From: an uncultured virus (IMG/VR IMGVR_UViG_3300044695_008744)
Taxonomy: Duplodnaviria; Heunggongvirae; Uroviricota; Caudoviricetes
IMG/VR virus record: IMGVR_UViG_3300044695_008744
Reading direction: 5' to 3' (one strand)
Length of the DNA: 64,000 nt
Below are positions 8,775 to 38,072 of the stretch, piece by piece. The notes below the pieces were generated by a model. That model saw only the letters and a list, made by a program, of their open reading frames with translations, had not been told where the DNA came from and searched no databases. A program made the translations under genes and the position numbers. Position 1 is the first letter of the stretch. Every line of letters begins with the position of its first letter.

Positions 8775-9608
8775 CTAGCTTACACCAAAATAGTCATTTA
8801 AAAATTCTTGAACAAAAAAAGGAACTTCTGATTTATTCAAACTATACCAACTAATAAAATTTGGATTCCAACTTAATAAGTTTGCCCAATTATAAACATT
8901 CATATAAGTGCTATTAAATAAATTGTTATAAATAGTATAATCTACTTGAGTGTTAAATTTAATAAATGCATCATTTGCGTTCAAAGAATAAAATTGACCA
9001 TATCCATTGTTATATCTGAAACTTTTTAAGCTTATTGAATACAATGAAGTGGGTAATGATTGCCAACTAGTATTAATTCCTGAAATTGTGACATCTTCCA
9101 AGCGAGTCAAAACTAAAATAGATAAATTTGGATCATTAATTAAATCAGATTCAAAATCTCTTATTATGTTGGCATCTAAATCTTCATTTGAATCATAGGG
9201 TACTCCATAAGTTTTAAAGTTAGAAGCAATACCTACGATTGAAGCCCCATTTTGCTGAATAGATATTTTCAAAGGAAGTGTTTTGTTTACATAATTAATT
9301 GTACTTAAACCAGATGCTGGTAAGTCTTGAAGAGAAATCAAATTTTGTACTTGTATAGTTGTGTCATTATTTAAGTCTGGCAAAACTTGATACACAGAAT
9401 TATATGTAAACACACCTGGTTGAATCTTAATGTTGTTTAAATCGAATGGCTGGTAAAGCTCAAATCCATAATTGAGAGAAAAAGATGTTGAAAATCCATA
9501 ATTTCGCAAAGTGTTTATATTTGCATTTTCAATTTCTAATGACTTTTTATATTTATAAAAAAGCTCACACATAGATCCTAATAAATTTGTTATAATCGAA
9601 GTTGTCAT
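8775..9608 (-). CDS. probable virion structural protein
   Basis: 277 aa, translationally coupled within the structural block. Confidence 0.5.
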   Translation of the reverse strand: MTTSIITNLLGSMCELFYKYKKSLEIENANINTLRNYGFSTSFSLNYGFELYQPFDLNNIKIQPGVFTYNSVYQVLPDLNNDTTIQVQNLISLQDLPASGLSTINYVNKTLPLKISIQQNGASIVGIASNFKTYGVPYDSNEDLDANIIRDFESDLINDPNLSILVLTRLEDVTISGINTSWQSLPTSLYSISLKSFRYNNGYGQFYSLNANDAFIKFNTQVDYTIYNNLFNSTYMNVYNWANLLSWNPNFISWYSLNKSEVPFFVQEFLNDYFGVS

Positions 9609-12600
9609 GATGATCTAATAACGAAAGAGTCTCCTGGTGGATATCCACTATTCACTGATTCTGCATCTTCTAGTGTTTTAGAAACATTAAAAAATACAAT
9701 ATTGTCGATTGGTGCGCCAGAATTTAAACTCACAGGATTTGGAGTAATTCCAGATGATATTGAATTATAGTTAATTAATGTGTTTCCTGCTCCTACATTC
9801 CAATTCACTTGAATCATGGAAGTAGATAAAGAGAAATAATATACCTTAAAATACACAGGCAAAGATCTTTCAGAAACACTTAAACTTGAAGATGAAACAA
9901 TGATGCCTGTTGAAATTGTGCTAAATGTATCAATCAAAGGTTGAGAATTATTGTTGATGTATAGCTGGACACCAGCAGATGTACCTATAGTGATTGAAAC
10001 TGGAACGGTTGATGCCAAGTTCCCAGATGGTTGAAAAGTACCTTCAAATATCCCCGATTTTACTCCAGTAGAAATTCCTATTATTGTGTTAGCAGAACCC
10101 TGTAAATAATTTATTGAATCCACATAGGATTGCTGAATAACATTGAAGATTGAAAAGTTTTTATAATTAGAAGTGGTTCTATCCATCCAAGTCACTTTCC
10201 ATTTTGGATAAGCATTTAAGGTAATTGTTTCTTGATTATAAATTCCATTTGAATTATATCCAATATTAACATAAATATCATGAGAATATCCCAAATACTG
10301 ATAAACAGGTAAACTCGTACCAATTACACTTGTATTATTCAAAAATGCTCTTGGATAAATTGATAATGGTTGATTTACAAGATCTGATTTATATGACCAG
10401 TAACCATCTACCACATTTACAGGATCTGACTCTCTCAATCTATTTGGTTTTGCCAAACCAAATTGTGATTTATCTGTGTAATTGAAAGCTCCATAAATAT
10501 CTGGACTTACTTGATTAAAAAGTTTATTGAACACAAAATTGAAATTAACAGAAGTGTTAGACAGCCCAATCTGGCTCAAAGTAGACATGCCCAAAAGCAC
10601 ACCATCATATTGTGAAAGAGATCTACTCGCAAATGCTTGATTAATAAATAAAGGATTTGCTGATATTAAACTTGCTGAGTTAATAATTGTTCCAGAATAT
10701 AGTGTACTATTGAAAGTAAATGCCACTCCAGTAAAAGTGCTTGAAAGAGATGCAACATTAACCAAATTACTAAAAATTATTCCTGTTTCAGAATTATAAG
10801 TGGTAGATATTTTTAAAGACAAATTATTGGCGCCTTCATATTCACTATTTTTTCTTAAGTTAATATTGGCTCCAATCGTATCACTAATTAATAAATCAGA
10901 GCCAAAAATATTTGATAAATTTATTGGAGCTTTGGCAATATCTAAATCATAACCATTTGTGGAAATTCCACCAGCTATAATAAAGTAATTTGGGTCATTG
11001 TAAATATCTGATGACAGTATAGAATAATCAGAAGTTGAAATCCCAGTAAATGATCCTTTTATGCTTAAAAAACAATTAGTCAAATTTTGTTTTATCGAAA
11101 CATAGTATACTGATTGTGAGAGTGACACTAAAGTATTAGCAAAATTAAAATATATTGGAATGTTTAGATCTGAATAACTATTTCTACTAATTTCAGTTAT
11201 AGATATTCTATCTGAACTTGCCACTTCAGTTTTTATATTATCCTCTAGCGCATAAATTTTAAATTGTATATCTCCACTTGGATTTTTGCCATTCAATTCA
11301 ATTAATTTACAGCTTATTGTAACAAAACTAATTTGTTTGTTGCCGAAAGAATATGGCACAGTAATTGAATTGAATATTTCATCTTCATATAAAAGATAAG
11401 TTTGCGAACCAGCTGTATAGTTTAGATTGGACAAGTTTGTGTTAGGTGTAGAAAAATTATTAATGTTTTCTAAATCACCTGGCTGTAAATTCAAAGGGGC
11501 TATTAAGAATGAATCAATGGTAGGGGCATTATTTATTTTTATATCAATGTCAGCAAAAGAAGTGTAACCTAAGCCAACTAATGCTCTAGGGTTGAATTTA
11601 AAACCAGCATTGTAGCCTATAGCTGGAGGTTTAGTTTGTGTGAAACTTGTTATAATTTTGCTTGTATTTACGGTTGCTGAAAACTCAGAAACATTATCCA
11701 TAACCAAAGTTATAGAAGCGCTAGATGTTCCAATGCCTGTAGAAGTAAACCCAACATTCAGAAAAGTACTAAAACCGAAGTAAAAATTACTTCCTGGATT
11801 TAGAATTTTTATTGAGCTTGGATCTAAAATACCACTTGATAAAATACTAAATTCAATTTGAGCAGGTTGTTCGTCTGATTTTTGATTATCTGGAGGTAAA
11901 AACCATGCAGTGTATCCTCCAGGTATTTGTGAGCTTCCAAAAGAATTTACAGTAACAGATTTCAATCTACAATTGTAACCTACAGGAATATTTGAGATTG
12001 TGTATGGGGGTGAACCAACAAAAGCTGTAGCAATGCCACTTAAAATATTTGCCGTCAGATTAGTAAACCCTGTATCATCAATTTGAGCTGGCTCTAAGAA
12101 TTTTTCATCAAATCCTTCGTTCCAATATTTAGGTTGATTGACAACATAATTAGCAGCACATATTGAAATACTCGTGAGCGCATTGAAGTTGTTTGAAAAC
12201 TTATCTAAATTAATAGTGTAAAAAGAATTTCCAGCATCAAGATAATCTTGTATGGCTTCGTTGATGTCATCAGAATTAGTTATGCCCTGACTTCTTAAAT
12301 AATCTATAAACTCTTCGTAGGTATATTTTGTAGAATCTTTAGGTGAAAAAGATTTAGTAAGTATTGGGACAACAGATCCATCTTTTAAATTTGGAATAAG
12401 ACCAGAGTATCCATACAATCTGAATTCATTTATGCTTGAAACACTATAGTCGCTGTAATCCGTAGAATCTGGATTTGCTAAATAATAATATCCAATAGTA
12501 TCTTGGTTGTTAAAAATCCTGTTGTTGTAATCACTTTCAGAGATCAGATATTTAGATGCCATCAAATATAAAATTTTATTTAAATAATTTTGATTGTTGT

Positions 12601-14329
12601 ATCCGAATTTCAAATTTAATGTGTAATCCAGTGCTAATCCTTGCCCTTGACTGTAAGGATCAATTCCATTGCAAACTAAGCTAATTGGTTTATAGATTTC
12701 GAAAGCAGTGTCGGAGGGTAAATTATAATCGTTATATAAGGTTAATCTACCCTGATCAAAAATCAAAAACTCTTTACTTGAGACTATATGCACCGCTTCA
12801 TAAATGGATTTTTCTTCATATTCAGAAAAATTCAATGGTGGAGTGTCAGTGGTTCCATAAGGTTGTGTGAAATTTTTCAAGGTGTTCCTTGAAATTATTA
12901 AATTTTCGCCAGCAAAGTATTCATCGACATTATTGAAATTTACTCCAAAAAACAAATCAGCTATAAAATTATCTAAAGTGTTTAGATATAATGATTTCAA
13001 TTCATTTAATGCTAAAGAATAATTCTTTGCTGCTGGTAAATATTCAGCAAAAGCTATCCACAAATTTTCATCTGGAATTACTTTAACAAAAGCTGAAGGC
13101 ACAATTTGTGTATTGTAAACAATGCTGTAATCATTTTGTAAATTTATTTTTTTAGGATTTTTTTCAAAAATAAAAATATTAGCTGGAACATTTCTGTTAT
13201 ATAATTTTTCTAAACTTTTAATATTTAAAGAACTAGCAAAATTTGATTCAAAAAGATTTTTCAAATCATAGCTTGCATTTGCTGAAGTATTTTGTTTTGT
13301 ACCCGATGTAATAAAATCTCCATAAAAATACACATAATTTTGATTTGAACTTAATATATTATTGAAGTTAACATTTTCATAAGCAAAATATCTTGTTGGC
13401 TGGCTTTGTTCTGAAAATACTCCATCAATTAGAGTTTCATTTATTCTGTCTGGAGCCCATAAATATGGATCACTTTCAACAAAACACTGTGTTGTGAACC
13501 CGATAGAATATGGGGTAGTATTTGACCAAAAATTCTTTCTGCCTGAAATTGAAGTGATATTTGTTTGAATTGAAGATGTTGTTAAAATACCTAATTTATT
13601 TATGAAATTTTGAGTACCAACATATTTAATTGATGAGTTGGTGTTTGAATTTGTGGAAATAAAACTTGAATCATTATTTCCCCAATAAAAAGTTAGATTG
13701 TAATTAGATATTGAAGAATTAATATAGTTTAGTTTTATGAGTAAATTTGTTTGTGGCTGAGCATAAGACCATGCATAATCAAATCTTATCAAATTAGAAT
13801 TTACATACCCACTAGAAATATTAAAATTATCATTGCCATATACTGCAAAGTCTATTGGAGCATCAAAGAGATGAGAATTAAATTGATTTCCAGATAAATC
13901 AAAACTTGAATAAGGAATGGATATTACAGAAGTTTTATTTATACCCACTGCACTAAATGAGTAAATTTCTCCAGACAAAAAAGTACTGCTAAAGCCAAAA
14001 TTGTAATTTAAGATTGTGGTTGAAATATGTGTACATAAATTAAATGAAGGATAATTTTCAGTGTTTGTTAATCCTATTTTGACATTTTGCAGGCTTTGAA
14101 GCAAATAGTCTGTTTGGTTAGATTGTATCTCTGATTGATACGGTGCAAGAATAGAAGCCAAATCATAATTTTCTGTTACCGTGGATCCTATTATTTCCGA
14201 AGCTGATTCAAAAAAATGAGCACTTACACCAATATTTTTATTCATGTCACCAATTGTTTCATCCAACACTTGATAAGTGATTGCATTAGAGTGAACAATA
14301 TTTGTGAAGAATTTTTGTATCGTTGTCAT
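9605..14329 (-). CDS. large virion structural protein
   Basis: 1574 aa, N/S/T-rich beta-strand composition, one IKILNPGSNF-type repeat. Confidence 0.55.
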   Translation of the reverse strand: MTTIQKFFTNIVHSNAITYQVLDETIGDMNKNIGVSAHFFESASEIIGSTVTENYDLASILAPYQSEIQSNQTDYLLQSLQNVKIGLTNTENYPSFNLCTHISTTILNYNFGFSSTFLSGEIYSFSAVGINKTSVISIPYSSFDLSGNQFNSHLFDAPIDFAVYGNDNFNISSGYVNSNLIRFDYAWSYAQPQTNLLIKLNYINSSISNYNLTFYWGNNDSSFISTNSNTNSSIKYVGTQNFINKLGILTTSSIQTNITSISGRKNFWSNTTPYSIGFTTQCFVESDPYLWAPDRINETLIDGVFSEQSQPTRYFAYENVNFNNILSSNQNYVYFYGDFITSGTKQNTSANASYDLKNLFESNFASSLNIKSLEKLYNRNVPANIFIFEKNPKKINLQNDYSIVYNTQIVPSAFVKVIPDENLWIAFAEYLPAAKNYSLALNELKSLYLNTLDNFIADLFFGVNFNNVDEYFAGENLIISRNTLKNFTQPYGTTDTPPLNFSEYEEKSIYEAVHIVSSKEFLIFDQGRLTLYNDYNLPSDTAFEIYKPISLVCNGIDPYSQGQGLALDYTLNLKFGYNNQNYLNKILYLMASKYLISESDYNNRIFNNQDTIGYYYLANPDSTDYSDYSVSSINEFRLYGYSGLIPNLKDGSVVPILTKSFSPKDSTKYTYEEFIDYLRSQGITNSDDINEAIQDYLDAGNSFYTINLDKFSNNFNALTSISICAANYVVNQPKYWNEGFDEKFLEPAQIDDTGFTNLTANILSGIATAFVGSPPYTISNIPVGYNCRLKSVTVNSFGSSQIPGGYTAWFLPPDNQKSDEQPAQIEFSILSSGILDPSSIKILNPGSNFYFGFSTFLNVGFTSTGIGTSSASITLVMDNVSEFSATVNTSKIITSFTQTKPPAIGYNAGFKFNPRALVGLGYTSFADIDIKINNAPTIDSFLIAPLNLQPGDLENINNFSTPNTNLSNLNYTAGSQTYLLYEDEIFNSITVPYSFGNKQISFVTISCKLIELNGKNPSGDIQFKIYALEDNIKTEVASSDRISITEISRNSYSDLNIPIYFNFANTLVSLSQSVYYVSIKQNLTNCFLSIKGSFTGISTSDYSILSSDIYNDPNYFIIAGGISTNGYDLDIAKAPINLSNIFGSDLLISDTIGANINLRKNSEYEGANNLSLKISTTYNSETGIIFSNLVNVASLSSTFTGVAFTFNSTLYSGTIINSASLISANPLFINQAFASRSLSQYDGVLLGMSTLSQIGLSNTSVNFNFVFNKLFNQVSPDIYGAFNYTDKSQFGLAKPNRLRESDPVNVVDGYWSYKSDLVNQPLSIYPRAFLNNTSVIGTSLPVYQYLGYSHDIYVNIGYNSNGIYNQETITLNAYPKWKVTWMDRTTSNYKNFSIFNVIQQSYVDSINYLQGSANTIIGISTGVKSGIFEGTFQPSGNLASTVPVSITIGTSAGVQLYINNNSQPLIDTFSTISTGIIVSSSSLSVSERSLPVYFKVYYFSLSTSMIQVNWNVGAGNTLINYNSISSGITPNPVSLNSGAPIDNIVFFNVSKTLEDAESVNSGYPPGDSFVIRSS

Positions 14330-18000: not shown

Positions 18001-18423
18001 ATGAATAAAAACATATCTACAAAAATTGTATCAGCTCTTTCGATCTTTGCTCTGGCAACCACTTCTTTTGCACAATCTACTTTCGGGAGACCTCACATTA
18101 ATTCAGTGACTGGTAGAGTTAATGTTTTACCAAATGTAAGAGTTATTGATTTTGGAAGACTCATTTATCAAGGAAGAATGGACGTAAATTCTACTATTGA
18201 TAGAATCAGATTGGGTAGAAAGCTAAATCATAAAAATGACGGATCATTTTTTTCAAATTTTCAACGAAGACTTCCAGCAAGCCCAGACACACAATACTAC
18301 AGAGAGTTTGTTCATCAAATGAATGGTTTTCCTTTTCCTGGACCACAAAGAGTGGTAATTGGCAAAAGAGGAGAAGTGTGGTATACAGGTGATCATTACA
18401 GTTCTTTTTTCAAAGTAAGATAA
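18001..18423 (+). CDS. secreted guanyl-specific ribonuclease (barnase/RNase Sa family)
   Basis: Sec signal peptide ending TTSFA; FSNFQRRLP, YYREF, GPQRVVIG, WYTGDHYSSF with catalytic E, R and H; SD AAGGA. Confidence 0.85.
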   Translation: MNKNISTKIVSALSIFALATTSFAQSTFGRPHINSVTGRVNVLPNVRVIDFGRLIYQGRMDVNSTIDRIRLGRKLNHKNDGSFFSNFQRRLPASPDTQYYREFVHQMNGFPFPGPQRVVIGKRGEVWYTGDHYSSFFKVR

Positions 18424-18442: not shown

Positions 18443-19462
18443 ATGAGTAAGATTGAATCCGACAAAGAAAAAAAACAATCTATAAAACCTATTGCTAAAA
18501 AAACTGATTTTAATGGTGATAAAATAACACATTCTGAAACCGAAAAAACCAGAGGTGTTGTTGTATTTTTATCATCTGACTTAAGTGGTGCACCAGAAGT
18601 AATAGATGTTCACGACGGTACAGTAGATTTGGATGCTACCAACTCTCTAAAGAATGACACCGAATCAGAAAACTTGGTATTACAAAGCTTATATTTTGAT
18701 TCAATTTCGCCTGAAATCAATTGTAAACAACAAAAAATGTATCTAAAAGGCTCAGGTTTAAATTCAAAATTACCTGAGATTAAATGCAAAACAACACTCA
18801 GGGAGCGAATAGAAGATAAAAAAAACTCAATGCTGTCTAGAACTATTTTTTTGATAAATTTGTTCTTTTTGAAGAAAAAGTACACAAATTTCTTTACAAA
18901 TATTTATTCAGAAATAATACCAGAAGATGTTTTCCAAGCAAAGGTTTTGAATTTGACTAAGTTCAATCGCAATAGATTGATGAAAAAGTATGGTATCAGT
19001 GAAGATGAGCTCAATTTTATTGCTTTTGCAAGATTCTCGTACCCATTTATAACTAGAGGTGAAAAAGAATGGAGCAAAATCGAAAAAAATGCTGATGCGT
19101 TCATTGCAAGAAAATGGATAACAGAAGACATTAAAGGTAATTTCAAAATAAATGTTAGCAAAGTTTATACATTCAGGGAAAAAATTATTTTTCCTAATCA
19201 ATTTAAAGACATTGTTATCAAAAAAGCTTTTAATTGGAAAATCTTAAATAAGATTCTGAGAAAAGTTGAAAGAAGTGCAAAAACTCAAGTGCACGTTTAT
19301 ACTATTTCTCAAATTAGCAAACTTCCTTTTACCCAATTTGGAAATAGTAATATTGCCACTCATCCTCCTATTAGTAAAAATGATGAACAAATAAGTAGTT
19401 TGATCAAGAAAAAACCAATTGAAGCAATGAGTAGCATTAATAAAAAAAATTTTTTAAAATAA
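18443..19462 (+). CDS. hypothetical basic protein
   Basis: 339 aa Lys-rich ORF directly upstream of tRNA array 1; TATAAT just before the ATG. Confidence 0.6.
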   Translation: MSKIESDKEKKQSIKPIAKKTDFNGDKITHSETEKTRGVVVFLSSDLSGAPEVIDVHDGTVDLDATNSLKNDTESENLVLQSLYFDSISPEINCKQQKMYLKGSGLNSKLPEIKCKTTLRERIEDKKNSMLSRTIFLINLFFLKKKYTNFFTNIYSEIIPEDVFQAKVLNLTKFNRNRLMKKYGISEDELNFIAFARFSYPFITRGEKEWSKIEKNADAFIARKWITEDIKGNFKINVSKVYTFREKIIFPNQFKDIVIKKAFNWKILNKILRKVERSAKTQVHVYTISQISKLPFTQFGNSNIATHPPISKNDEQISSLIKKKPIEAMSSINKKNFLK

Positions 19463-19484
19463 AATAAAATAAGAAACTTTTTTA

Positions 19485-19513
19485 AAGGAAAAACCGTCTA
19501 AGATTGTGTAATA
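19485..19513 (+). promoter_or_regulatory. putative promoter of tRNA array 1 (AAGG-N21-AATA)
   Basis: Matches the motif recurring upstream of many genes in the window. Confidence 0.5.
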
Positions 19514-19529
19514 TAAAAAAGGAACTAAA

Positions 19530-19583
19530 ATGACAAATTCGCTACTCCATTCATATCCAGCCTACGCACCCTCATCGGGGTAG
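19530..19583 (+). CDS. attenuator leader peptide of tRNA array 1 (MTNSLLHSYPAYAPSSG)
   Basis: SD AAGGA 19519-19523, ATG 19530, TAG 19581-19583; codons CTA, CAT, TAT, TAC, CCA and GCA match the five downstream anticodons. Confidence 0.85.
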   Translation: MTNSLLHSYPAYAPSSG

Positions 19584-19612
19584 TGGCTCGTTGCGTATTT
19601 GACAAGCTACAG

Positions 19613-19646
19613 AACCCCGAAGGACTCAAATCTTTCGGGGTTTTTT
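19613..19646 (+). terminator. intrinsic terminator (attenuator) upstream of tRNA array 1
   Basis: AACCCCGAAGGA-ctcaaa-TCTTTCGGGGTT 12-bp stem followed by a T tract. Confidence 0.9.
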
Positions 19647-19652
19647 ATTTTT

Positions 19653-19664
19653 GAACATTGACAA
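19653..19664 (+). promoter_or_regulatory. boxA-like antitermination element
   Basis: GAACATTGACAA resembles rrn boxA; 11 nt before the first tRNA, same spacing as array 2. Confidence 0.55.
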
Positions 19665-19675
19665 TTTAATAAAAT

Positions 19676-19754
19676 CTATGCGTTGAGGAGTTTGGCTTAC
19701 CTCGCGTCCCTTGGGAGGACGAGTACGCAGGTTCAAATCCTGCCGCATAGACCA
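19676..19754 (+). tRNA. tRNA-Pro(TGG)
   Basis: Acceptor CTATGCG/CGCATAG, anticodon arm CGTCC-CT TGG GA-GGACG, GGTTCAAATCC, CCA end. Confidence 0.92.
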
Positions 19755-19758
19755 ATTT

Positions 19759-19843
19759 GGGGGCATCGCATAGTGGCAATTGCTGGAGACTGTAAATCTC
19801 CCCTCGCGAGAGTTCGTAGGTTCGAGTCCTTCTGCCCCCACCA
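19759..19843 (+). tRNA. tRNA-Tyr(GTA)
   Basis: Acceptor GGGGGCA/TGCCCCC, GGAGA-CT GTA AA-TCTCC, long variable arm, CCA end. Confidence 0.92.
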
Positions 19844-19850
19844 AAATTTT

Positions 19851-19930
19851 GCCGAAGTGGTGGAATGCATACACGCTAGTCTTAGAAACTAGTGCCTTAG
19901 GGCATGTGGGTTCAAATCCCACCTTCGGTA
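19851..19930 (+). tRNA. tRNA-Leu(TAG)
   Basis: Acceptor GCCGAAG/CTTCGGT, CTAGT-CT TAG AA-ACTAG, variable arm; followed by TCA rather than CCA. Confidence 0.9.
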
Positions 19931-19936
19931 TCAAAT

Positions 19937-20010
19937 AAGCAAGTAGCTCAATTGGTAGAGCCTTTTGGTTGTGACCCAGAAGCGTGTGAGTTCAAATCTC
20001 ACCTTGCTGA
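19937..20010 (+). tRNA. tRNA-His(GTG), atypical ends
   Basis: TAGCTCAATTGGTAGAGC D arm, TTTGG-TT GTG AC-CCAGA, GTGAG-TTCAAAT-CTCAC; 1:72 mismatch, no G-1/C73, no encoded CCA. Confidence 0.75.
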
Positions 20011-20019
20011 CTCAGTTTA

Positions 20020-20096
20020 GGGGCTGAAGCTTATTAGGGAAAGCGTCTGATTTGCAATCAGAAGTCTTGCGGGTTCGAAACCCGTCAGCTCCACCA
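20020..20096 (+). tRNA. tRNA-Ala(TGC)
   Basis: Acceptor GGGGCTG/CAGCTCC with G3:U70, TCTGA-TT TGC AA-TCAGA, CCA end. Confidence 0.92.
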
Positions 20097-20097
20097 A

Positions 20098-20415
20098 TTA
20101 CAAATCATAAAATCTCTTTGGAGTGTAAATATATTTCATAGGCTGAACACCTACCTCGTCAGGTTGAGTTGTAGGTTCTTCAGCTAATTCGCCTAATACC
20201 GCTGGTGGCTCAGGAATAGGGGGATTAATTTGTGCTGGTTCGTTAACAACATTATTTTGTTTACGATTATATTCTCTTGCCAATTCTTTACAAGTTTCGC
20301 AAGCTCTTTCATCAAATTGCCAGATTGTGTTTCCGCCAGGAAGTTGTTCAATGAAGCATCTACACCCTTCATGCACAGGAGGTAAGATTTGTTGTTGTGA
20401 ATATTTATACCACAC
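20098..20415 (-). CDS. small Cys/His protein with Mu gpF/SPP1 gp7-like PPxHxxCRC motif (GTG start MWYKYSQ; shorter than the ORF-track call)
   Basis: PPVHEGCRC and ACETC motifs; GTG at 20415 follows TAGG-N22-AATC; the longer start would run into the array 2 promoter/leader. Confidence 0.6.
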   Translation of the reverse strand: MWYKYSQQQILPPVHEGCRCFIEQLPGGNTIWQFDERACETCKELAREYNRKQNNVVNEPAQINPPIPEPPAVLGELAEEPTTQPDEVGVQPMKYIYTPKRFYDL

Positions 20416-20465
20416 AATCTGATTTTCAAGAAAAAAAACAAAAAAACCTAATTTTATAGAACAAA

Positions 20466-20493
20466 AAGGAGATTGTGTCGTATAATCATAATA
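20466..20493 (+). promoter_or_regulatory. putative promoter of tRNA array 2 (AAGG-N20-AATA, with TATAAT at 20481-20486)
   Basis: Recurrent motif plus a perfect sigma70-type -10 hexamer. Confidence 0.55.
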
Positions 20494-20504
20494 AGGAATT
20501 AACA

Positions 20505-20573
20505 ATGAAATTAAATTTGCAGGGCAGTATGGTGGGATGTTTTATTTGGTCAACCCAAGGGGGTAGTGGCTAG
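20505..20573 (+). CDS. attenuator leader peptide of tRNA array 2 (MKLNLQGSMVGCFIWSTQGGSG)
   Basis: SD AAGGA 20493-20497, ATG 20505, TAG 20571-20573; the run AGT ATG GTG GGA TGT TTT ATT TGG TCA plus CAG/CAA matches all ten canonical downstream tRNAs. Confidence 0.88.
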   Translation: MKLNLQGSMVGCFIWSTQGGSG

Positions 20574-20601
20574 AAACCTGCTGTTAGCAAAAATTTCAAC
20601 C

Positions 20602-20638
20602 AAAATCCCTGAAGGCAAAATCTTCAGGGATTTTTTTT
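20602..20638 (+). terminator. intrinsic terminator (attenuator) upstream of tRNA array 2
   Basis: AAAATCCCTGAAGG-caaaa-TCTTCAGGGATTTT stem followed by a T8 tract. Confidence 0.9.
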
Positions 20639-20640
20639 AT

Positions 20641-20652
20641 GTTCTTTGACAA
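20641..20652 (+). promoter_or_regulatory. boxA-like antitermination element
   Basis: GTTCTTTGACAA closely matches rrn boxA (GYTCTTTRAMAA); 11 nt before the first tRNA. Confidence 0.65.
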
Positions 20653-20663
20653 TTAAATAGTGA

Positions 20664-20739
20664 GCGATATTGGTGTTAATGGTTAGCATCACTGCCTTCC
20701 AAGCAGAGGGTGCCAGTTCGAATCTGGCATATCGCTCCA
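20664..20739 (+). tRNA. tRNA-Gly(TCC)
   Basis: Acceptor GCGATAT/ATATCGC, loop CT TCC AA, U73, CCA end. Confidence 0.92.
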
Positions 20740-20747
20740 GATTATGT

Positions 20748-20823
20748 GGCTTTCAGGTGTAACTGGTGTGCACGAAGTGCTGAAAACGCTTAGGACATAG
20801 TTCAATTCTATGGGGAGCCACCA
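20748..20823 (+). tRNA. tRNA-Phe(GAA)
   Basis: Acceptor GGCTTTC/GGGAGCC, AAGTG-CT GAA AA-CGCTT, CCA end. Confidence 0.88.
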
Positions 20824-20832
20824 CAATTTTGA

Positions 20833-20919
20833 GGAAGGTAATGCTGAATGGTTTTGGCGAATGTTTGCTAAACATTTCGGGCTGAAAGGTCTCTGGTTCA
20901 ATTCCAGTGCCTTCCTCCA
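20833..20919 (+). tRNA. tRNA-Ser(GCT)
   Basis: Acceptor GGAAGGT/GCCTTCC, AATGT-TT GCT AA-ACATT, long variable arm, CCA end. Confidence 0.88.
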
Positions 20920-20924
20920 TACAA

Positions 20925-21012
20925 GGGGAATTCGCATAGTGGTCTAGTGCGGCTGTCTTGAAAACAGTAGGGCTGAAAGGTTCCGTGGGTTCGAATCCTA
21001 CATTCCCCTCCA
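20925..21012 (+). tRNA. tRNA-Ser(TGA)
   Basis: Acceptor GGGGAAT/ATTCCCC, GCTGT-CT TGA AA-ACAGT, long variable arm, CCA end. Confidence 0.92.
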
Positions 21013-21020
21013 AGTTTTGT

Positions 21021-21094
21021 GTTGTCTCTAGCTCAGTTGGTAGAGCATTCCATCGCGAGGAAAGGCGAAGGTTCAATTCCTTCGGGCAACACCA
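21021..21094 (+). tRNA. aberrant tRNA-like gene, identity undetermined (nominal anticodon CGC, Thr-like body)
   Basis: Intact D arm, T arm and ACCA end, but only a 4-bp anticodon stem TTCC-ATCGCGA-GGAA and one extra base before U8; no G3:U70. Confidence 0.6.
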
Positions 21095-21100
21095 TTTTAT

Positions 21101-21187
21101 TGAGGAATAGTGTAATTGGTAACACGCTAGGTTTTGGCCCTAGAGACAGAAATGCTCGTCCACGTTCGAATCGTGGTTCCTCAGCCA
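21101..21187 (+). tRNA. tRNA-Gln(TTG) with unusually long variable region
   Basis: Acceptor TGAGGAA/TTCCTCA, G73, CTAGG-TT TTG GC-CCTAG, 16-nt variable region, CCA end. Confidence 0.85.
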
Positions 21188-21190
21188 AGC

Positions 21191-21265
21191 ATCCGAGTAG
21201 CTCAATGGTAGAGCCCAATCTTGATAAGGTTGAGGTTTTTGGTTCAAGCCCAAACTCGGATACCA
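21191..21265 (+). tRNA. tRNA-Ile(GAT)
   Basis: Acceptor ATCCGAG/CTCGGAT, CAATC-TT GAT AA-GGTTG, CCA end. Confidence 0.9.
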
Positions 21266-21266
21266 C

Positions 21267-21341
21267 ATCCGCGTAGCTCAACGGTAGAGCAAAATCCTTA
21301 CAAGATTGAGGTTTTTGGTTCGAATCCAAACGTGGATACCA
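21267..21341 (+). tRNA. tRNA-Val(TAC)
   Basis: Acceptor ATCCGCG/CGTGGAT, loop CT TAC AA, CCA end. Confidence 0.9.
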
Positions 21342-21346
21342 ATTTC

Positions 21347-21420
21347 GGCAAATTAGCTCAATGGCAGAGCGGAGGTATCATAAGCCTTTGATAAAAGTTC
21401 GATTCTTTTATTTGCCCCCA
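21347..21420 (+). tRNA. tRNA-Met(CAT), elongator-type (Ile2 not excluded)
   Basis: Acceptor GGCAAAT/ATTTGCC fully paired (not initiator-like), GAGGT-AT CAT AA-GCCTT, CCA end. Confidence 0.8.
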
Positions 21421-21423
21421 TAA

Positions 21424-21497
21424 GCACGATTAGCTAAATGGTAAAGCAAGGGTCTGCAAAACCTTTATCGCTGGTTCGATTCCAGCATTGTGCTCCA
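21424..21497 (+). tRNA. tRNA-Cys(GCA)
   Basis: Acceptor GCACGAT/ATTGTGC, U73, AGGGT-CT GCA AA-ACCTT, CCA end. Confidence 0.92.
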
Positions 21498-21500
21498 TAC

Positions 21501-21575
21501 ACCGCTGAGAGTAGGTTGTTTCTAAAGAGTCTCCAAAACTTTTTTACCTGGGTTCAAATCCCAGCGGCGGTGCCA
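21501..21575 (+). tRNA. tRNA-Trp(CCA)
   Basis: Acceptor ACCGCTG/CGGCGGT, G73, AGAGT-CT CCA AA-ACTTT, atypical D arm, CCA end. Confidence 0.85.
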
Positions 21576-21578
21576 ATC

Positions 21579-21887
21579 TCACGACACAATCTTAATAATA
21601 TGCGGTTCTGTTTCTGAGATATTGAATATACCATCACCCAATTGATATTTTTTACCTAAATCATCAATGAAATCCTGAAATTGCGTTTCAGCATTTTCAA
21701 TCACTTCTTGGTTTTGTGCAAATTCTGCCTGTAGGGATTGCATTTGCTTTTCAGTTTTTCTCATCATATCAAATAAATCTGATCTTTTTCCTTTCAGATT
21801 AAGAATACCAGCTCTCATTTGGGTATAGTTGTTGAATTCTTCTTTGGAAAGTGCTTTTTCAGATTGTGTGTCGCTTTTGAACTTCAT
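21579..21887 (-). CDS. coiled-coil hypothetical protein
   Basis: 102 aa heptad-rich ORF downstream of the amidase, convergent on array 2. Confidence 0.6.
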   Translation of the reverse strand: MKFKSDTQSEKALSKEEFNNYTQMRAGILNLKGKRSDLFDMMRKTEKQMQSLQAEFAQNQEVIENAETQFQDFIDDLGKKYQLGDGIFNISETEPHIIKIVS

Positions 21888-22809: not shown

Positions 22810-23355
22810 ATGACTTTGAATTGCAATATTCCACATTTTGAATGTTTTGTTAAAAAAGAATTTCTTACCAACTTTACACAATCTGATGAGTTGATAAAAG
22901 CCAAAGCTTTTGCAGTGTCGAGCACAAGAGGTCAAGTGTTACAGTTTCATGTTTTGACAGAGCATGGAGCAATGTTTTCTAAACTTCCAGTGCATGCTTT
23001 AGTTCTTAAAAAAGATTATGAAAAAATGGAATTAAATCAGCTTGTCACTTATGATACTTTTAGTTTTCATTTGTCAAACATTACTTATGATTATTTAAAA
23101 TATTTGACATGCACATACTTTGCTGGTGATAAACGCGAAAAATATGGGGCTACATATTTTACAACAGTTGATTTTTATGATTCCGAGTATGCAGATCACC
23201 CTGGTGTCACTAAATGTTGTCATATTTTGTTTTTAGATAATGGCAATATTGCGGCAGCACCAAACAATAGAATCCTATGGAACGACACAGGATTAAAGTC
23301 AGATGTAACGAAAATTGATTATAAGCCTTTAAATAAAATCTTTACAGTGGAATGA
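22810..23355 (+). CDS. conserved phage protein of unknown function
   Basis: LNCNIP...FVKKEFL...FHVLTEHGAMFSKLPVHAL...HILFLDNGNIAAAPNNRILW resembles a widespread uncharacterised aquatic-phage family. Confidence 0.6.
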   Translation: MTLNCNIPHFECFVKKEFLTNFTQSDELIKAKAFAVSSTRGQVLQFHVLTEHGAMFSKLPVHALVLKKDYEKMELNQLVTYDTFSFHLSNITYDYLKYLTCTYFAGDKREKYGATYFTTVDFYDSEYADHPGVTKCCHILFLDNGNIAAAPNNRILWNDTGLKSDVTKIDYKPLNKIFTVE

Positions 23356-24137
23356 AAATATTTTTTGATCATATTCTTTTTCAGCAAACTAATTACAATT
23401 TTAATCATACACTTGTATCTGCAATTTTTGAAGAAAATGAATATAATTATGCATTAGAAAATGGATGGTTTCCAGATAATTTTTGGATAAATTCATCTAC
23501 AAGTCATTCAATAAGATGTGAAAAATTGGGCGAATTTGTTTGGTCTCCAATAAGATCTTCTAGAATTAAAGTGGAGGATTTTGTACTTGACAAAAAAGAT
23601 AGAAGATTACTTAAAAATAATATTGATGTAGAAAAGCAAATTGTTTCGCAAATAGATACTGTAGAAGTGTTTGAAGTTTATAAAAAATATATTTGCGCAA
23701 AAGGATTCGATGATTTTAAGGATTCATTAGAAGATTTCAAACATAGTTTTTGCCGAGAAGATTTTCATTTTTTACTTTACAAACAAAACACAATCTTAAT
23801 AGGCTTTTGTATTGTGCAACCATTTGGAAATAATCTAGTGTCTTATCAATTTTGTTGGGATTATGAAAATCCAAAATTAAGTTTGGGAAAATTTTCACAA
23901 ATTCAAGAAATAGAATATGCTAAATCACTCAACATGAATTATGTTTACATAGGATGCATTGCTGAAAAAGAAGGAATGTATAAAAGTAATTTTTCTGGAT
24001 TTGAATATTTTAATGGAAGAGAATGGAGAAAGAAAGATAACTTAATCGAAAAATGGCTTTTGAATGATTCAGATTGTGTGAGTATTGACAGATTGTGTGA
24101 GTTAGAAAAGGAATACATCAAAGACTACCAGGTTTAA
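23352..24137 (+). CDS. aminoacyl-tRNA-protein transferase, Ate1/Bpt family (GNAT fold)
   Basis: ALENGW, RSSRI, VYKKYI, FCWDYENPKLSLGKFSQIQEIEYAK...YVYIG...MYKSNF match the ATE_N/ATE_C pattern. Confidence 0.8.
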   Translation: MKIFFDHILFQQTNYNFNHTLVSAIFEENEYNYALENGWFPDNFWINSSTSHSIRCEKLGEFVWSPIRSSRIKVEDFVLDKKDRRLLKNNIDVEKQIVSQIDTVEVFEVYKKYICAKGFDDFKDSLEDFKHSFCREDFHFLLYKQNTILIGFCIVQPFGNNLVSYQFCWDYENPKLSLGKFSQIQEIEYAKSLNMNYVYIGCIAEKEGMYKSNFSGFEYFNGREWRKKDNLIEKWLLNDSDCVSIDRLCELEKEYIKDYQV

Positions 24138-37853: not shown

Positions 37854-38072
37854 ATGCGTTTTAGTAGTTTATCAGAAGCAATAAAATATCACACACAAGT
37901 TACAAGCAAAACTGATAACATTGCACCTTATGGTTCTCTTGCTGCTGAATTATCTCAAATTCCAGTGTTGAACACAAACTATATAACGCCACAATCTCCT
38001 AATGCAATTACCTATGGTGTTACAATCTGGGGCTTAGGTAAAATCACAGAAGTAAATAAACCAGAAGTATGA
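37854..38072 (+). CDS. small virion-associated protein
   Basis: 72 aa, coupled to the next gene; preceded by the recurrent motif. Confidence 0.55.
   Translation: MRFSSLSEAIKYHTQVTSKTDNIAPYGSLAAELSQIPVLNTNYITPQSPNAITYGVTIWGLGKITEVNKPEV

What the first reader, a model, noticed from the sequence alone, without database searches (positions are those of the whole stretch)
19530..19583. Leader 1 is built from the five amino acids of array 1
Codons 5-14 (19542-19571) read CTA CTC CAT TCA TAT CCA GCC TAC GCA CCC (LLHSYPAYAP), so 9 of 10 encode Leu, His, Tyr, Pro or Ala. They include the exact cognates CTA for Leu(TAG), CCA for Pro(TGG), GCA for Ala(TGC) and TAC for Tyr(GTA), plus wobble CAT for His(GTG). 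These C-rich codons stand out against the AT-rich surroundings. This repeats the leader 2 pattern independently with a disjoint tRNA set.
Basis: seen in the sequence. Interest (0 to 1): 0.9.

Follow-up and report, generated by a model that had tools for sequence, protein, structure and literature searches.

The report
Leader-peptide attenuators gating phage tRNA arrays
A giant lake phage places each of its two large tRNA gene blocks behind a tiny test gene written in the codons those tRNAs read and wired to a stop/go RNA switch, so it probably makes those tRNAs only when ribosomes run short of them.

Summary
ATG 19530 to TAG 19583 encodes MTNSLLHSYPAYAPSSG, and 9 of codons 5-14 specify Leu, His, Tyr, Pro or Ala. 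These are the five tRNAs that follow at 19676-20096.

The match is beyond chance:
- Leader 1 covers 5 of 5 array-1 tRNAs. Its paralogue, leader 2 (20505-20573), covers 10 of 11 array-2 tRNAs.
- The real split of the 16 tRNAs is the single best of 4368 possible splits.
- Leader 2 is the best of 2389 short ORFs in the 347-kb genome.

Both leaders share one scaffold: phage promoter motif, AGGAA, short ORF, an invariant 12-mer holding or abutting the stop codon, an intrinsic terminator, a TTGACAATTNAAT box, then the tRNAs. The 12-mer can pair with the ORF's 3' half or with the terminator's 5' arm. That is the classic four-segment attenuator.

Two related metagenomic lineages keep the frame. One sensing codon per tRNA is fixed and changes only synonymously.

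Best reading (about 0.7): ribosome-mediated attenuation that senses decoding by the array's own tRNAs.

Caveats: no expression data, only three lineages, and a weak leader-2 antiterminator.

Six literature searches found no such control of tRNA genes. Earlier unchecked notes of this scan report the same idea on other, unrelated phage DNA.

The parts
19501..19514 (+). Promoter-like element of leader 1: genome-wide phage motif AGATTGTGT followed by the -10-like TAATAT
   Evidence: Sequence. GATTGTG occurs 432 times in the 347-kb genome with consensus CAGATTGTGT. The same motif followed by TATAAT abuts the other tRNA clusters. The promoter role is inferred.
19520..19524 (+). AGGAA, a Shine-Dalgarno-like box 5 nt upstream of the ATG
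   Evidence: AGGAA lies 5-9 nt upstream of the ATG in all six leader versions, although the surrounding upstream sequence has diverged. SD cores are enriched at -17 to -8 of phage genes, but only 49 of 292 long ORFs have one.
19530..19583 (+). Leader 1 ORF, MTNSLLHSYPAYAPSSG*, 17 codons plus stop
   Evidence: It is open and of the same length in three lineages. The other five frames carry stops in at least one lineage.
19542..19565 (+). Sensing window of leader 1, codons 5-12 (L L H S Y P A Y). A stall here leaves the 12-mer free.
   Evidence: Stall model: the antiterminator stays at -21 to -25 kcal/mol for A-site codons up to 12 and collapses from codon 13-14. L5, H7, Y9, P10 and A11 are invariant in three lineages.
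19559..19572 (+). Segment 1, AGCCUACGCACCCU, which pairs with segment 2 (anti-antiterminator or pause hairpin)
   Evidence: MFE folds: -12.9 kcal/mol, z = -2.07, 5 of 200 shuffles as good.
19577..19588 (+). Segment 2, the conserved 12-mer GGGGTAGTGGCT, which contains the leader's stop codon
   Evidence: Exact copies at 19577 and 20560 only. It sits in different reading frames in the two leaders, so it is an RNA-level element. It pairs with segment 1 or with segment 3.
19605..19620 (+). Segment 3, AGCUAC..ACCCCGA, the partner of segment 2 in the antiterminator; it overlaps the terminator's 5' arm
   Evidence: antiterminator 19575-19620 at -22.1 kcal/mol, z = -3.67, 1 of 200 shuffles as good.
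19611..19656 (+). Intrinsic terminator of leader 1: 14-bp stem, 6-nt loop, T-run
   Evidence: stem 19611-19644 plus TTATTTTTGA.: -20 kcal/mol, z = -5.85, 0 of 200 shuffles as good.
19658..19670 (+). Conserved box TTGACAATTTAAT between the terminator and the first tRNA
   Evidence: Invariant TTGACAATTNAAT in all six units. A similar TTGAAAATTAAAT lies downstream of a CGTATAAT promoter in front of another tRNA. It is therefore probably a transcribed pre-tRNA 5' leader element rather than a promoter. Its function is unknown.
19676..20096 (+). tRNA array 1: Pro(TGG), Tyr(GTA), Leu(TAG), His(GTG), Ala(TGC)
   Evidence: ARAGORN; Rfam tRNA hits.
20470..20498 (+). Leader 2 promoter-like element AGATTGTGTCGTATAAT followed by AGGAA
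   Evidence: The upstream gene is divergent (20098-20505, minus strand), so this unit has its own start.
20505..20573 (+). Leader 2 ORF, MKLNLQGSMVGCFIWSTQGGSG*. Codons 6-16 (QGSMVGCFIWS) all belong to array 2.
   Evidence: 10 of 11 array-2 tRNAs covered, with a run of 9 (strict wobble) or 11 (four-way wobble) in-set codons. It is the only one of 2389 short ORFs with coverage of 10 or more.
20602..20642 (+). Intrinsic terminator of leader 2
   Evidence: 20602-20634 plus T-run.: -17.9 kcal/mol, z = -5.55.
20647..20659 (+). Conserved box TTGACAATTAAAT of unit 2
20664..21575 (+). tRNA array 2: Gly(TCC), Phe(GAA), Ser(GCT), Ser(TGA), 'Ala'(CGC), Gln(TTG), Ile(GAT), Val(TAC), Met(CAT), Cys(GCA), Trp(CCA)
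   Evidence: ARAGORN one search gives 10 of them. The eleventh, at 20833-20915, was found by Rfam and called tRNA-Ser(gct) by ARAGORN at a relaxed threshold.

Best explanation
Both units are ribosome-mediated (leader-peptide) transcription attenuators that gate the phage's two large tRNA arrays.

Proposed mechanism:
1. Transcription starts at a phage promoter motif and a ribosome loads on the short ORF.
2. If every codon in the sensing window is decoded promptly, the ribosome runs to the stop codon. That codon lies inside (leader 1) or just after (leader 2) the conserved 12-mer, which is segment 2.
3. The ribosome covers segment 2, the terminator hairpin (segments 3:4) forms, and transcription ends before the tRNAs.
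4. If a codon in the sensing window is decoded slowly because its tRNA is scarce, uncharged or damaged, the ribosome stalls upstream. It holds segment 1, segment 2 pairs with segment 3, the terminator cannot form, and RNA polymerase reads into the array.
5. The sensing windows are leader 1 codons 5-12 and leader 2 codons 6-15. Each holds about one codon per tRNA of the array behind it. Each array is therefore under negative feedback from its own products.

Shown from sequence and computation: the ORFs, the terminators, the alternative pairings, the codon/tRNA match and its conservation.

Inferred: the transcription start, translation of the ORFs, coupling of ribosome and polymerase, and the direction of the response.
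For: Architecture
- The order is promoter motif, AGGAA, ORF, 12-mer, terminator, box, tRNAs. It occurs twice in the window and nowhere else in the 347-kb genome. nhmmer gives two hits at E about 3e-39 and the next best at E = 0.31.
- Four other tRNA clusters have a promoter that abuts the tRNA and no leader.
- The terminators are real (z = -5.85 and -5.55).

Switch
- The 12-mer pairs with the ORF's 3' half.
- When segment 4 is not yet made and segment 1 is masked, the 12-mer pairs instead with the terminator's 5' arm. Energies are -20 to -25 kcal/mol in the three leader-1 versions and -11.5 to -18 in the three leader-2 versions.
- Masking through the stop codon leaves -1 kcal/mol or less.
- In the stall model the antiterminator survives stalls up to codon 12 (leader 1), codon 15 (leader 2) and codon 13 (leader 2 of G001). 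That is where the in-set codons end.
- The one variable base of the 12-mer (G/A) is unpaired in both conformers.

Codon match
- Leader 1 covers 5 of 5 array-1 tRNAs and leader 2 covers 10 of 11 array-2 tRNAs.
- The cross-match is 0 codons for leader 2 against array 1.
- The real split is the unique best of 4368.
- The genome-wide ranks are 18 of 2389 and 1 of 2389.

Conservation
- Three lineages carry the units: the window plus L024; L025, L026, L036 and L042; and G001 plus L032/L033.
- Start, stop and frame are kept, and the leader-2 length differences between the window/L025 (22 codons) and G001 (20 codons) are whole codons, so the frame stays open.
- In-frame synonymous changes are 4 of 9, 2 of 4 and 5 of 10 differing codons, against 0-2 in the off-frames.
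- Leu5 uses CTA, CTT and CTC in the three lineages.
- G001 has an extra tRNA-Leu(GAG), and its leader 1 holds two CTC codons and covers 6 of 6 tRNAs.
- G001 lacks tRNA-Ile, and its leader 2 reads Met where the window reads Ile.
- Replacements in G001 leader 2 stay within the array's set: G to F, M to Q, I to M.

Other
- Rfam's His_leader model aligns full length to leader 2 but below threshold: 26.9 bits against a gathering score of 49, E = 0.11.
Against: - There is no expression, ribosome or 5'/3'-end evidence.
- There are only three lineages, and they are homologous, so the replications are not independent.
- The leader-2 antiterminator folds no better than shuffles (z = -0.59, 51 of 200).
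- In the full-length RNA the terminator is always in the MFE structure, so the switch must work kinetically.
- For leader 1 the truncated free RNA already prefers the antiterminator. The default state without a ribosome is therefore unclear.
- The -10-like hexamers sit only 5-7 nt upstream of AGGAA. The SD may therefore lie at the very 5' end of the transcript.
- Only 49 of 292 long ORFs of the phage have an SD core.
- The leader holds one codon per tRNA, not runs as in the classical leaders.
- Mismatches: 'Ala'(CGC) is never represented. G001 keeps tRNA-Val but its leader 2 has no Val codon.
- Leaders are unchanged where HNH endonuclease insertions have cut the arrays: L042 array 1 has lost Leu, His and Ala, and L025 array 2 is truncated.
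- Codons 11-14 of leader 1 and W-S-T of leader 2 are also constrained by pairing with the 12-mer, so part of the match may be structural.
- The invariant TTGACAATTNAAT box is unexplained. If it were a promoter, the arrays would not depend on read-through.
Confidence: 0.7

Rival explanations
1. General translation-capacity sensor. The leader is translated and works as an attenuator, but it reports overall ribosome speed or availability (for example host shut-off, or global ribosome or elongation-factor status). It does not report the supply of the particular tRNAs downstream, and the codon match is a by-product.
For: Each tRNA has only one codon in the leader, so any single tRNA gives weak leverage. 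Leaders did not change after recent loss of tRNAs from the arrays. 'Ala'(CGC), and Val in G001, are not represented.
Against: The match is array-specific. Leader 2 has 0 codons read by array 1. The true 5+11 split is the unique best of 4368. Leader 2 is the single best of 2389 short ORFs. The two paralogous scaffolds differ precisely in their sensing windows. A general sensor would not need this.
Confidence: 0.1
2. Untranslated structured RNA. The unit is a small RNA, a processing signal or an RNA-only switch (protein- or RNA-binding) in front of the arrays. The ORF and its composition are accidental or follow from RNA pairing.
For: The whole leader is strongly structured (z = -4.0 and -4.4). 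The 12-mer is conserved at the RNA level and sits in different frames in the two leaders. SD use in this phage is low. The transcription start may clip the SD. In the own-nucleotide shuffle test the match for leader 1 alone is modest (P = 0.02).
Against: Frame 0 is the only frame open in all six versions. Leader 2 differs in length between lineages (22 codons in the window, 20 in G001) yet its frame stays open. The excess of synonymous changes is frame-specific. The sensing codons upstream of segment 1 (leader 1 codons 5-10, leader 2 codons 6-14) carry most of the match. Spacer positions change freely while the five sensing positions are fixed. AGGAA is kept at SD distance. No Rfam family reaches its threshold, and there is no T-box hit at E of 1 or less.
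Confidence: 0.12
3. Separate small transcription unit. Promoter, mini-gene and terminator form an independent unit (a small peptide gene, or the terminator of the upstream gene). The tRNAs are transcribed from their own start at the TTGACAATTNAAT box.
For: The box is invariant and lies 5-9 nt upstream of the first tRNA, as the TATAAT promoters of the other tRNA clusters do. Leader 1 follows a co-directional gene that ends at 19462.
Against: The box has no sigma-70-type partner hexamer. Its relative at genome position 13640 lies downstream of a CGTATAAT promoter, that is, inside a transcript. Leader 2 follows a divergent gene, so its terminator ends nothing else. The peptide sequence is not conserved as such: positions 6, 8 and 12 vary and residues trade places. 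This reading does not explain the array-specific codon match.
Confidence: 0.06

Closest known systems
Leader-peptide transcription attenuators of enterobacterial amino-acid operons (trpL, hisL, leuL, pheL, thrL and the multivalent ilvL). Named from general knowledge, not from a call.
   Same: A short ORF lies next to the promoter. Regulatory codons sit in or just upstream of segment 1. The stop codon is close to segment 2. The 1:2, 2:3 and 3:4 pairings are mutually exclusive. An intrinsic terminator lies upstream of the regulated genes. Rfam's His_leader model aligns end to end to leader 2 at a sub-threshold score.
   Different: The regulated genes are tRNAs, not biosynthetic enzymes. The leader samples about one codon for each of 5 or 10 different tRNAs rather than runs of one to three amino acids. 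The logical signal is tRNA supply, with feedback by the product itself. The system is phage-encoded and present as two paralogous, differently 'programmed' copies. There is no sequence membership in any Rfam leader family.
pheM leader of the pheST operon (leader-peptide attenuation of an aminoacyl-tRNA synthetase). Recalled, not tested here.
   Same: A leader-peptide attenuator controls a component of the decoding apparatus rather than a biosynthetic pathway.
   Different: That target is a protein enzyme and the leader senses one amino acid or tRNA. Here the targets are the tRNAs themselves and many are sensed at once.
T-box riboswitches (Rfam RF00230). Recalled.
   Same: A terminator/antiterminator decision in a 5' leader reports the state of a specific tRNA.
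   Different: A T-box binds the uncharged tRNA directly, without a ribosome, through one specifier codon and a conserved T-box sequence. No T-box match was found at E of 1 or less. Here there is a translatable ORF with many codons.
Earlier notes of this scan on other phage genomes (e1-2978539, e1-5886956, e1-5926040 and others)
   Same: The same idea: a promoter, a codon-matched or pan-amino-acid leader ORF and a switchable terminator in front of phage tRNA arrays.
   Different: Those notes concern unrelated sequences. No look-alike of this leader was found among earlier findings by sequence or by relatives. They are AI notes, and I did not test them.

Membership tests
Ribosome-mediated (leader-peptide) transcription attenuator (mechanistic class) | Short ORF with a start codon and ribosome-binding signal close to the transcription start | tested here: inconclusive
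   ATG ORFs of 17 and 22 codons have AGGAA 5-9 nt upstream in all six versions. The promoter and transcription start are inferred only. The -10-like hexamer lies 5-7 nt upstream of AGGAA. SD use in the phage is low (49 of 292).
Ribosome-mediated (leader-peptide) transcription attenuator (mechanistic class) | Regulatory codons in the leader that correspond to the product or function of the regulated genes | tested here: met
   Leader 1 covers 5 of 5 and leader 2 covers 10 of 11 downstream tRNAs. The real split is the unique best of 4368. The ranks are 18 and 1 of 2389 short ORFs.
Ribosome-mediated (leader-peptide) transcription attenuator (mechanistic class) | Intrinsic terminator between the leader ORF and the regulated genes | tested here: met
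   Terminators at 19611-19644 and 20602-20634 with T-runs; z = -5.85 and -5.55.
Ribosome-mediated (leader-peptide) transcription attenuator (mechanistic class) | Antiterminator mutually exclusive with the terminator, and an anti-antiterminator (1:2) that involves the ORF | tested here: met
   The 12-mer pairs with 19559-19572 or with 19605-19620. Support is strong for leader 1 (z = -3.67) and weak for leader 2 (z = -0.59).
Ribosome-mediated (leader-peptide) transcription attenuator (mechanistic class) | Geometry: a ribosome at the stop codon blocks the antiterminator, and a ribosome stalled at the regulatory codons permits it | tested here: met
   Constrained folds. This is a model only, using an assumed footprint of 13 nt from the A-site codon.
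Ribosome-mediated (leader-peptide) transcription attenuator (mechanistic class) | Read-through rises when the cognate charged tRNA is limiting, and this depends on leader translation | not testable with these tools
   This needs reporter or in vitro coupled transcription-translation assays.
Rfam His_leader (RF00514) | Score at or above the family's gathering threshold | tested here: not met
   26.9 bits against 49, E = 0.11, at 20486-20640. Not a member; the resemblance is in architecture only.
T-box riboswitch | Match to the T-box covariance model (Stem I specifier loop plus T-box antiterminator sequence) | tested here: not met
   No T-box hit among the 26 matches at E of 1 or less in 19300-21700.

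The most novel reading that the evidence does not exclude
The two leaders are programmable 'tRNA meters'. Each carries one test codon for every tRNA in the block behind it. Loss of any single host tRNA species would then switch on exactly the phage array that holds the replacement, and the new tRNA would switch it off again. Such loss could come from phage-induced host shut-off or from host anticodon-nuclease defences. This would be a self-calibrating, per-array feedback control of tRNA supply and a built-in sensor of tRNA-targeting immunity. It would also be easy to re-program in evolution by exchanging single codons, as the L/S/R/P/Y swaps between lineages suggest.
Probability: 0.35. Interest if true: 0.9.

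Novelty: new variant of a known kind. Interest (0 to 1): 0.8.

Why it matters
Why phages carry tRNA genes, and how they control them, is still debated. The proposed reasons are codon-usage compensation, survival of host tRNA decay, and escape from tRNA-cleaving defences.

A leader that reads the very codons served by the array behind it would mean three things:
- The phage measures decoding directly and supplies tRNAs on demand.
- tRNA genes, normally seen as constitutive or growth-rate controlled, can be under product feedback through the ribosome.
- Attenuation, a textbook amino-acid-sensing device, has been re-used with a one-codon-per-tRNA design.

The paralogous pair in one genome is a natural specificity-swap experiment, which makes the idea directly testable with reporters. 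Six full-text searches found no description of leader-peptide control of tRNA genes.

Tried and rejected
- Searches for relatives. Viral-contig pattern scans returned 8 loci each and 1 locus. Only the G001 contig was a true relative; the rest were chance matches in coding DNA.
- Protein-based locus searches with the neighbouring 135-aa and amidase proteins found nothing. An alignment of the inter-array protein found only G001 again.
- The metagenome scan returned 21 loci. Seven, from six contigs, were true relatives and 14 were chance.
- The genome-contig scan returned 14 loci, none a relative, so it gave no host clue.
- blastn against cultured phages matched only single tRNAs. tblastn of the inter-array protein gave no match.
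- Expression. No RNA holder was listed.
- Metagenome contigs L025 and L042 could not be extended because they are not held. The rest of L025's array 2 is therefore unseen.
- A minus-strand 34-codon ORF over leader 1 is rejected because it is interrupted by stops in G001.
- The idea that TTGACAATT is a sigma-70 -35 box is rejected. It has no -10 partner, and a related box lies inside a transcript.
- ARAGORN intron mode gave implausible identities for two G001 tRNAs with insertions. I left them unassigned and dropped them, together with a duplicate Ser(GCT)-like copy, from the G001 partition test.
- The first attempt at the statistics used a wrong frame for leader 2. One search supersedes it.
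- The MAFFT alignment of the two paralogues (A2) is off by one column in the terminator. I therefore did not run column-based pair counts and relied on per-sequence folds.
- Rfam at the gathering threshold found no group I intron in the split tRNA-like region at genome position 13664-13965.
Full report
**What is there.** The window is part of a 347,392-bp virus record with 33.6% G+C.
- At 19530-19583 an ATG-initiated ORF reads MTNSLLHSYPAYAPSSG*.
- It is followed by a 14-bp intrinsic terminator (19611-19644 plus T-run), a 13-nt box TTGACAATTTAAT (19658-19670), and five tRNA genes at 19676-20096: Pro(TGG), Tyr(GTA), Leu(TAG), His(GTG) and Ala(TGC).
- After a gene on the opposite strand (20098-20505), the same plan is repeated.
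- The second unit has AGATTGTGTCGTATAAT, AGGAA, the ORF 20505-20573 (MKLNLQGSMVGCFIWSTQGGSG*), a terminator at 20602-20634, the box TTGACAATTAAAT, and eleven tRNAs at 20664-21575.
- ARAGORN missed the eleventh tRNA, at 20833-20915. Rfam found it, and ARAGORN at a relaxed threshold reads it as Ser(GCT).
- The two units align at 75% column identity and share an exact 12-mer, GGGGTAGTGGCT.
- A profile of the unit finds only these two copies in the genome (E about 3e-39; next best 0.31).
- The genome's other tRNA clusters (Asp-Asn-Thr, Lys, Arg, Met-Glu) have a TATAAT promoter that abuts the tRNA and no leader.

**Is the codon match more than chance?** I used strict wobble rules: G34 reads C/U, U34 reads A/G, C34 reads G.

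| Test | Leader 1 vs array 1 | Leader 2 vs array 2 |
|---|---|---|
| Array tRNAs covered by the leader's codons | 5 of 5 (16 codons) | 10 of 11 (21 codons; 'Ala'(CGC) missed) |
| P, draws from the phage's own codon usage | 9e-4 | 7e-5 |
| P, shuffles of the leader's own nucleotides | 0.02 | 0.003 |
| Off-frame readings of the same DNA | 2 of 5 | 6-7 of 11 |
| Short ATG ORFs in the genome (n = 2389) with equal or better coverage | 18 (4 of 596 length-matched) | 1, leader 2 itself |

- The match is specific. Leader 2 contains no codon read by array 1. Leader 1 contains five codons (Ser, Gly) read by array 2.
- With the two leaders held fixed, the real assignment of the 16 tRNAs to a block of 5 and a block of 11 is the single best of all 4368 assignments, with 15 of 16 covered.

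**The RNA switch.**
- The free leader RNAs are strongly structured (z = -4.0 and -4.4).
- In every version the 12-mer (segment 2) pairs with the 3' half of the ORF (segment 1). For leader 1 this is 19559-19572 with 19577-19588, at -12.9 kcal/mol and z = -2.07. For leader 2 it is -12.2 kcal/mol and z = -2.18.
- If the RNA is cut just before the terminator's 3' arm and segment 1 is masked, the 12-mer pairs instead with the terminator's 5' arm plus the bases upstream of it (segment 3).
- That antiterminator is -20 to -25 kcal/mol in the three leader-1 versions and -11.5 to -18 in the three leader-2 versions. The terminators are -18 to -22.
- Masking through the stop codon plus a ribosome's reach leaves -1 kcal/mol or less.
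- In a codon-by-codon stall model the antiterminator persists for A-site codons up to 12 in leader 1, 15 in leader 2 and 13 in the G001 leader 2, then collapses. The in-set codons end at that boundary.
- The 12-mer sits in different reading frames in the two leaders. TAG is the stop codon of leader 1 but is out of frame in leader 2. The 12-mer is therefore conserved as RNA, as expected for a segment that must pair with two partners.
- Its one variable base (G/A in L025 and G001 leader 2) is unpaired in both conformers.
- Weak points. The leader-2 antiterminator is no better than shuffles (z = -0.59, 51 of 200). The full-length MFE always contains the terminator, so any switch is kinetic. The truncated free leader-1 RNA already prefers the antiterminator.

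**Relatives.** Pattern scans found true relatives in one viral contig (G001, 166.5 kb) and in six metagenome contigs (7 of 21 loci). They fall into three lineages.

| Lineage | Leader 1 | Leader 2 |
|---|---|---|
| Window (and L024) | MTNSLLHSYPAYAPSSG | MKLNLQGSMVGCFIWSTQGGSG |
| L025, L026, L036, L042 | MTNSLRHPYPAYAPSSG | MKLNLQGSMVGCFIWSTQGGNG |
| G001 (and L032/L033) | MINTLSHLYPALAPSSG | MRNSQFSQGCFMWSTLQGNG |

- Frame 0 is the only one of six frames open in all versions.
- In leader 1, L5, H7, Y9, P10 and A11 are invariant: one codon for each amino acid of the array.
  - Their codons change synonymously (CTA/CTT/CTC; CCA/CCG; GCC/GCA).
  - The positions between them change freely (L/R/S; S/P/L).
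- In-frame synonymous fractions are 4 of 9, 2 of 4 and 5 of 10 differing codons, against 0-2 in the off-frames.
- G001 has an extra tRNA-Leu(GAG) in array 1. Its leader carries CTC twice plus CTA and covers 6 of 6 tRNAs.
- G001's array 2 lacks tRNA-Ile, and its leader 2 has ATG where the window has ATT. The other replacements stay within the array's set (G to F, M to Q).
- For G001, 13 of 15 confidently assigned tRNAs are covered, and 6 of 5005 splits do as well. Two tRNAs with insertions and one duplicate were left out of that test.
- Against tight tracking:
  - G001 keeps tRNA-Val, but its leader 2 has lost Val.
  - In L042 an HNH endonuclease gene (PF01844) together with a different tRNA-Tyr has replaced Tyr-Leu-His and most of Ala.
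  - In L025 an HNH insertion truncates array 2.
  - The leaders are unchanged in both L042 and L025. These look like recent events.

**Translation signals.**
- AGGAA lies 5-9 nt upstream of the ATG in all six versions, although G001's upstream sequence has diverged.
- SD cores are enriched at -17 to -8 of this phage's genes, but only 49 of 292 long ORFs have one.
- The likely promoters use the motif CAGATTGTGT. GATTGTG has 432 sites in the genome.
- Their -10-like hexamers lie 5-7 nt upstream of AGGAA, so the SD would be at the extreme 5' end of the RNA. This is a genuine uncertainty.

**The box.** TTGACAATTNAAT is invariant in all six units and has no -10 partner. A near-copy, TTGAAAATTAAAT, lies between a CGTATAAT promoter and another tRNA at genome position 13640-13664. 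I read it as a transcribed 5' element of the tRNA precursor. Its function is unknown.

**Mechanism proposed.** This is classical ribosome-mediated attenuation with tRNA genes as the regulated output.
- Smooth decoding takes the ribosome to the stop codon on the 12-mer. The terminator then forms and no tRNA is made.
- A slow codon in the sensing window holds the ribosome on or upstream of segment 1. The 12-mer pairs with the terminator's 5' arm and the array is transcribed.
- More tRNA cannot cure amino-acid starvation, so the useful signal is tRNA supply. That makes each array a product-feedback loop.
- Shown: sequence features, foldability, statistics and conservation.
- Inferred: transcription start, translation, coupling and direction of control.

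**Comparison with what is known.**
- The nearest kin in mechanism are the enterobacterial leader-peptide attenuators (recalled).
- Rfam's His_leader model aligns end to end with leader 2, but at 26.9 bits against a threshold of 49. There is therefore no family membership.
- No T-box match was found.
- The differences are the regulated genes (tRNAs), the one-codon-per-tRNA design covering 5 or 10 species, and two differently programmed paralogues in a phage.

**Literature.**
- Six full-text searches returned no paper that links leader peptides or attenuation to tRNA genes or arrays (I saw listings and abstract starts only).
- A term search inside PMC2965389 found 0 mentions of tRNA genes or operons.
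- The library lacks most subscription journals, so absence from print is not proven.

**Earlier notes of this scan.** A word search returned 77 notes in at least 71 other genomes that describe the same idea, and I saw eight of them. None shares sequence with this window. I did not test them, and they did not enter my scores.

**Verdict.** Confidence in a tRNA-sensing leader-peptide attenuator is about 0.7. It is a new variant of a known kind.

Noticed in passing
window 19501-19509, 20470-20478 and throughout genome G000: The 10-mer CAGATTGTGT is hugely over-represented: GATTGTG has 432 sites on both strands of 347 kb. It often lies just upstream of a TATAAT-like hexamer. A longer repeat, CCAGGTTTAAC(ACAATCTGA), occurs 63 times on the + strand only, after terminators. 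It is probably the phage's own promoter or regulatory signal.
   Followed up: partly
window 19658-19670 and 20647-20659; G000:C1:13640-13652: An invariant box TTGACAATTNAAT lies between each attenuator terminator and the first tRNA. A near-copy precedes another tRNA downstream of a CGTATAAT promoter. Its function is unknown; a pre-tRNA 5' leader or processing signal is one possibility.
   Followed up: partly
window 21021-21094; L025 (minus strand) around 3559-3629: The tRNA called Ala(CGC) has no G3:U70 pair in its acceptor stem (my reading of the sequence). Its homologue in L025 carries anticodon TAC (Val) and has lost its 3' end to an insertion. This is a fast-changing tRNA of doubtful identity, and the only array-2 tRNA with no codon in leader 2.
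   Followed up: partly
window 21101-21187: tRNA-Gln(TTG) is 87 nt long with a long extra arm, which is unusual for a Gln tRNA.
   Followed up: no
L012 (G001) 9826-9914 and 8598-8705, minus strand: The G001 homologue of tRNA-Gly(TCC) carries a 17-nt hairpin-forming insertion in its anticodon loop. The tRNA in the place of Gln carries a roughly 24-nt insertion. ARAGORN's intron mode gave inconsistent identities for both.
   Followed up: partly
L042 5278-6054; L025 3000-3560 (minus strand); L012 8811-9509: The tRNA arrays are insertion hot spots. HNH endonuclease genes (PF01844) sit inside array 1 of L042, together with a foreign tRNA-Tyr, and behind the truncated array 2 of L025. G001 has an unannotated 232-aa ORF inside array 2.
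   Followed up: yes
window 18001-18423 and 23352-24137: The arrays are flanked by a barnase/RNase N1-T1-type ribonuclease (PF00545, 36 bits), with what looks to me like an N-terminal signal-like segment (not tested), and by a protein with the C-terminal domain of arginine-tRNA-protein transferase (PF04377, 53 bits). The latter family of enzymes uses aminoacyl-tRNA.
   Followed up: partly
G000:C1:321534-321917 (L059 235-619): The phage encodes its own tmRNA (Rfam 108 bits; ARAGORN tag AKKNRRNGFGSAQAGFAMVA). This is another investment in handling stalled ribosomes.
   Followed up: partly
G000:C1:13664-13965 (L058): Two halves of a Leu-like tRNA appear to be separated by about 220 nt, just upstream of tRNA-Met. 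An intron is possible, but Rfam at the gathering threshold found no group I intron.
   Followed up: partly
L012 (G001) 11960-12050, minus strand: In G001 about 100 nt of extra sequence lie between the TTGACAATTAAAT box and tRNA-Pro. I did not identify this sequence.
   Followed up: no
window 48824-61237, 38069-43111, 9605-14326: There are very large ORFs (4138, 1681 and 1573 aa) with almost no PHROG matches. The window is otherwise a poorly annotated structural region of a jumbo phage.
   Followed up: no
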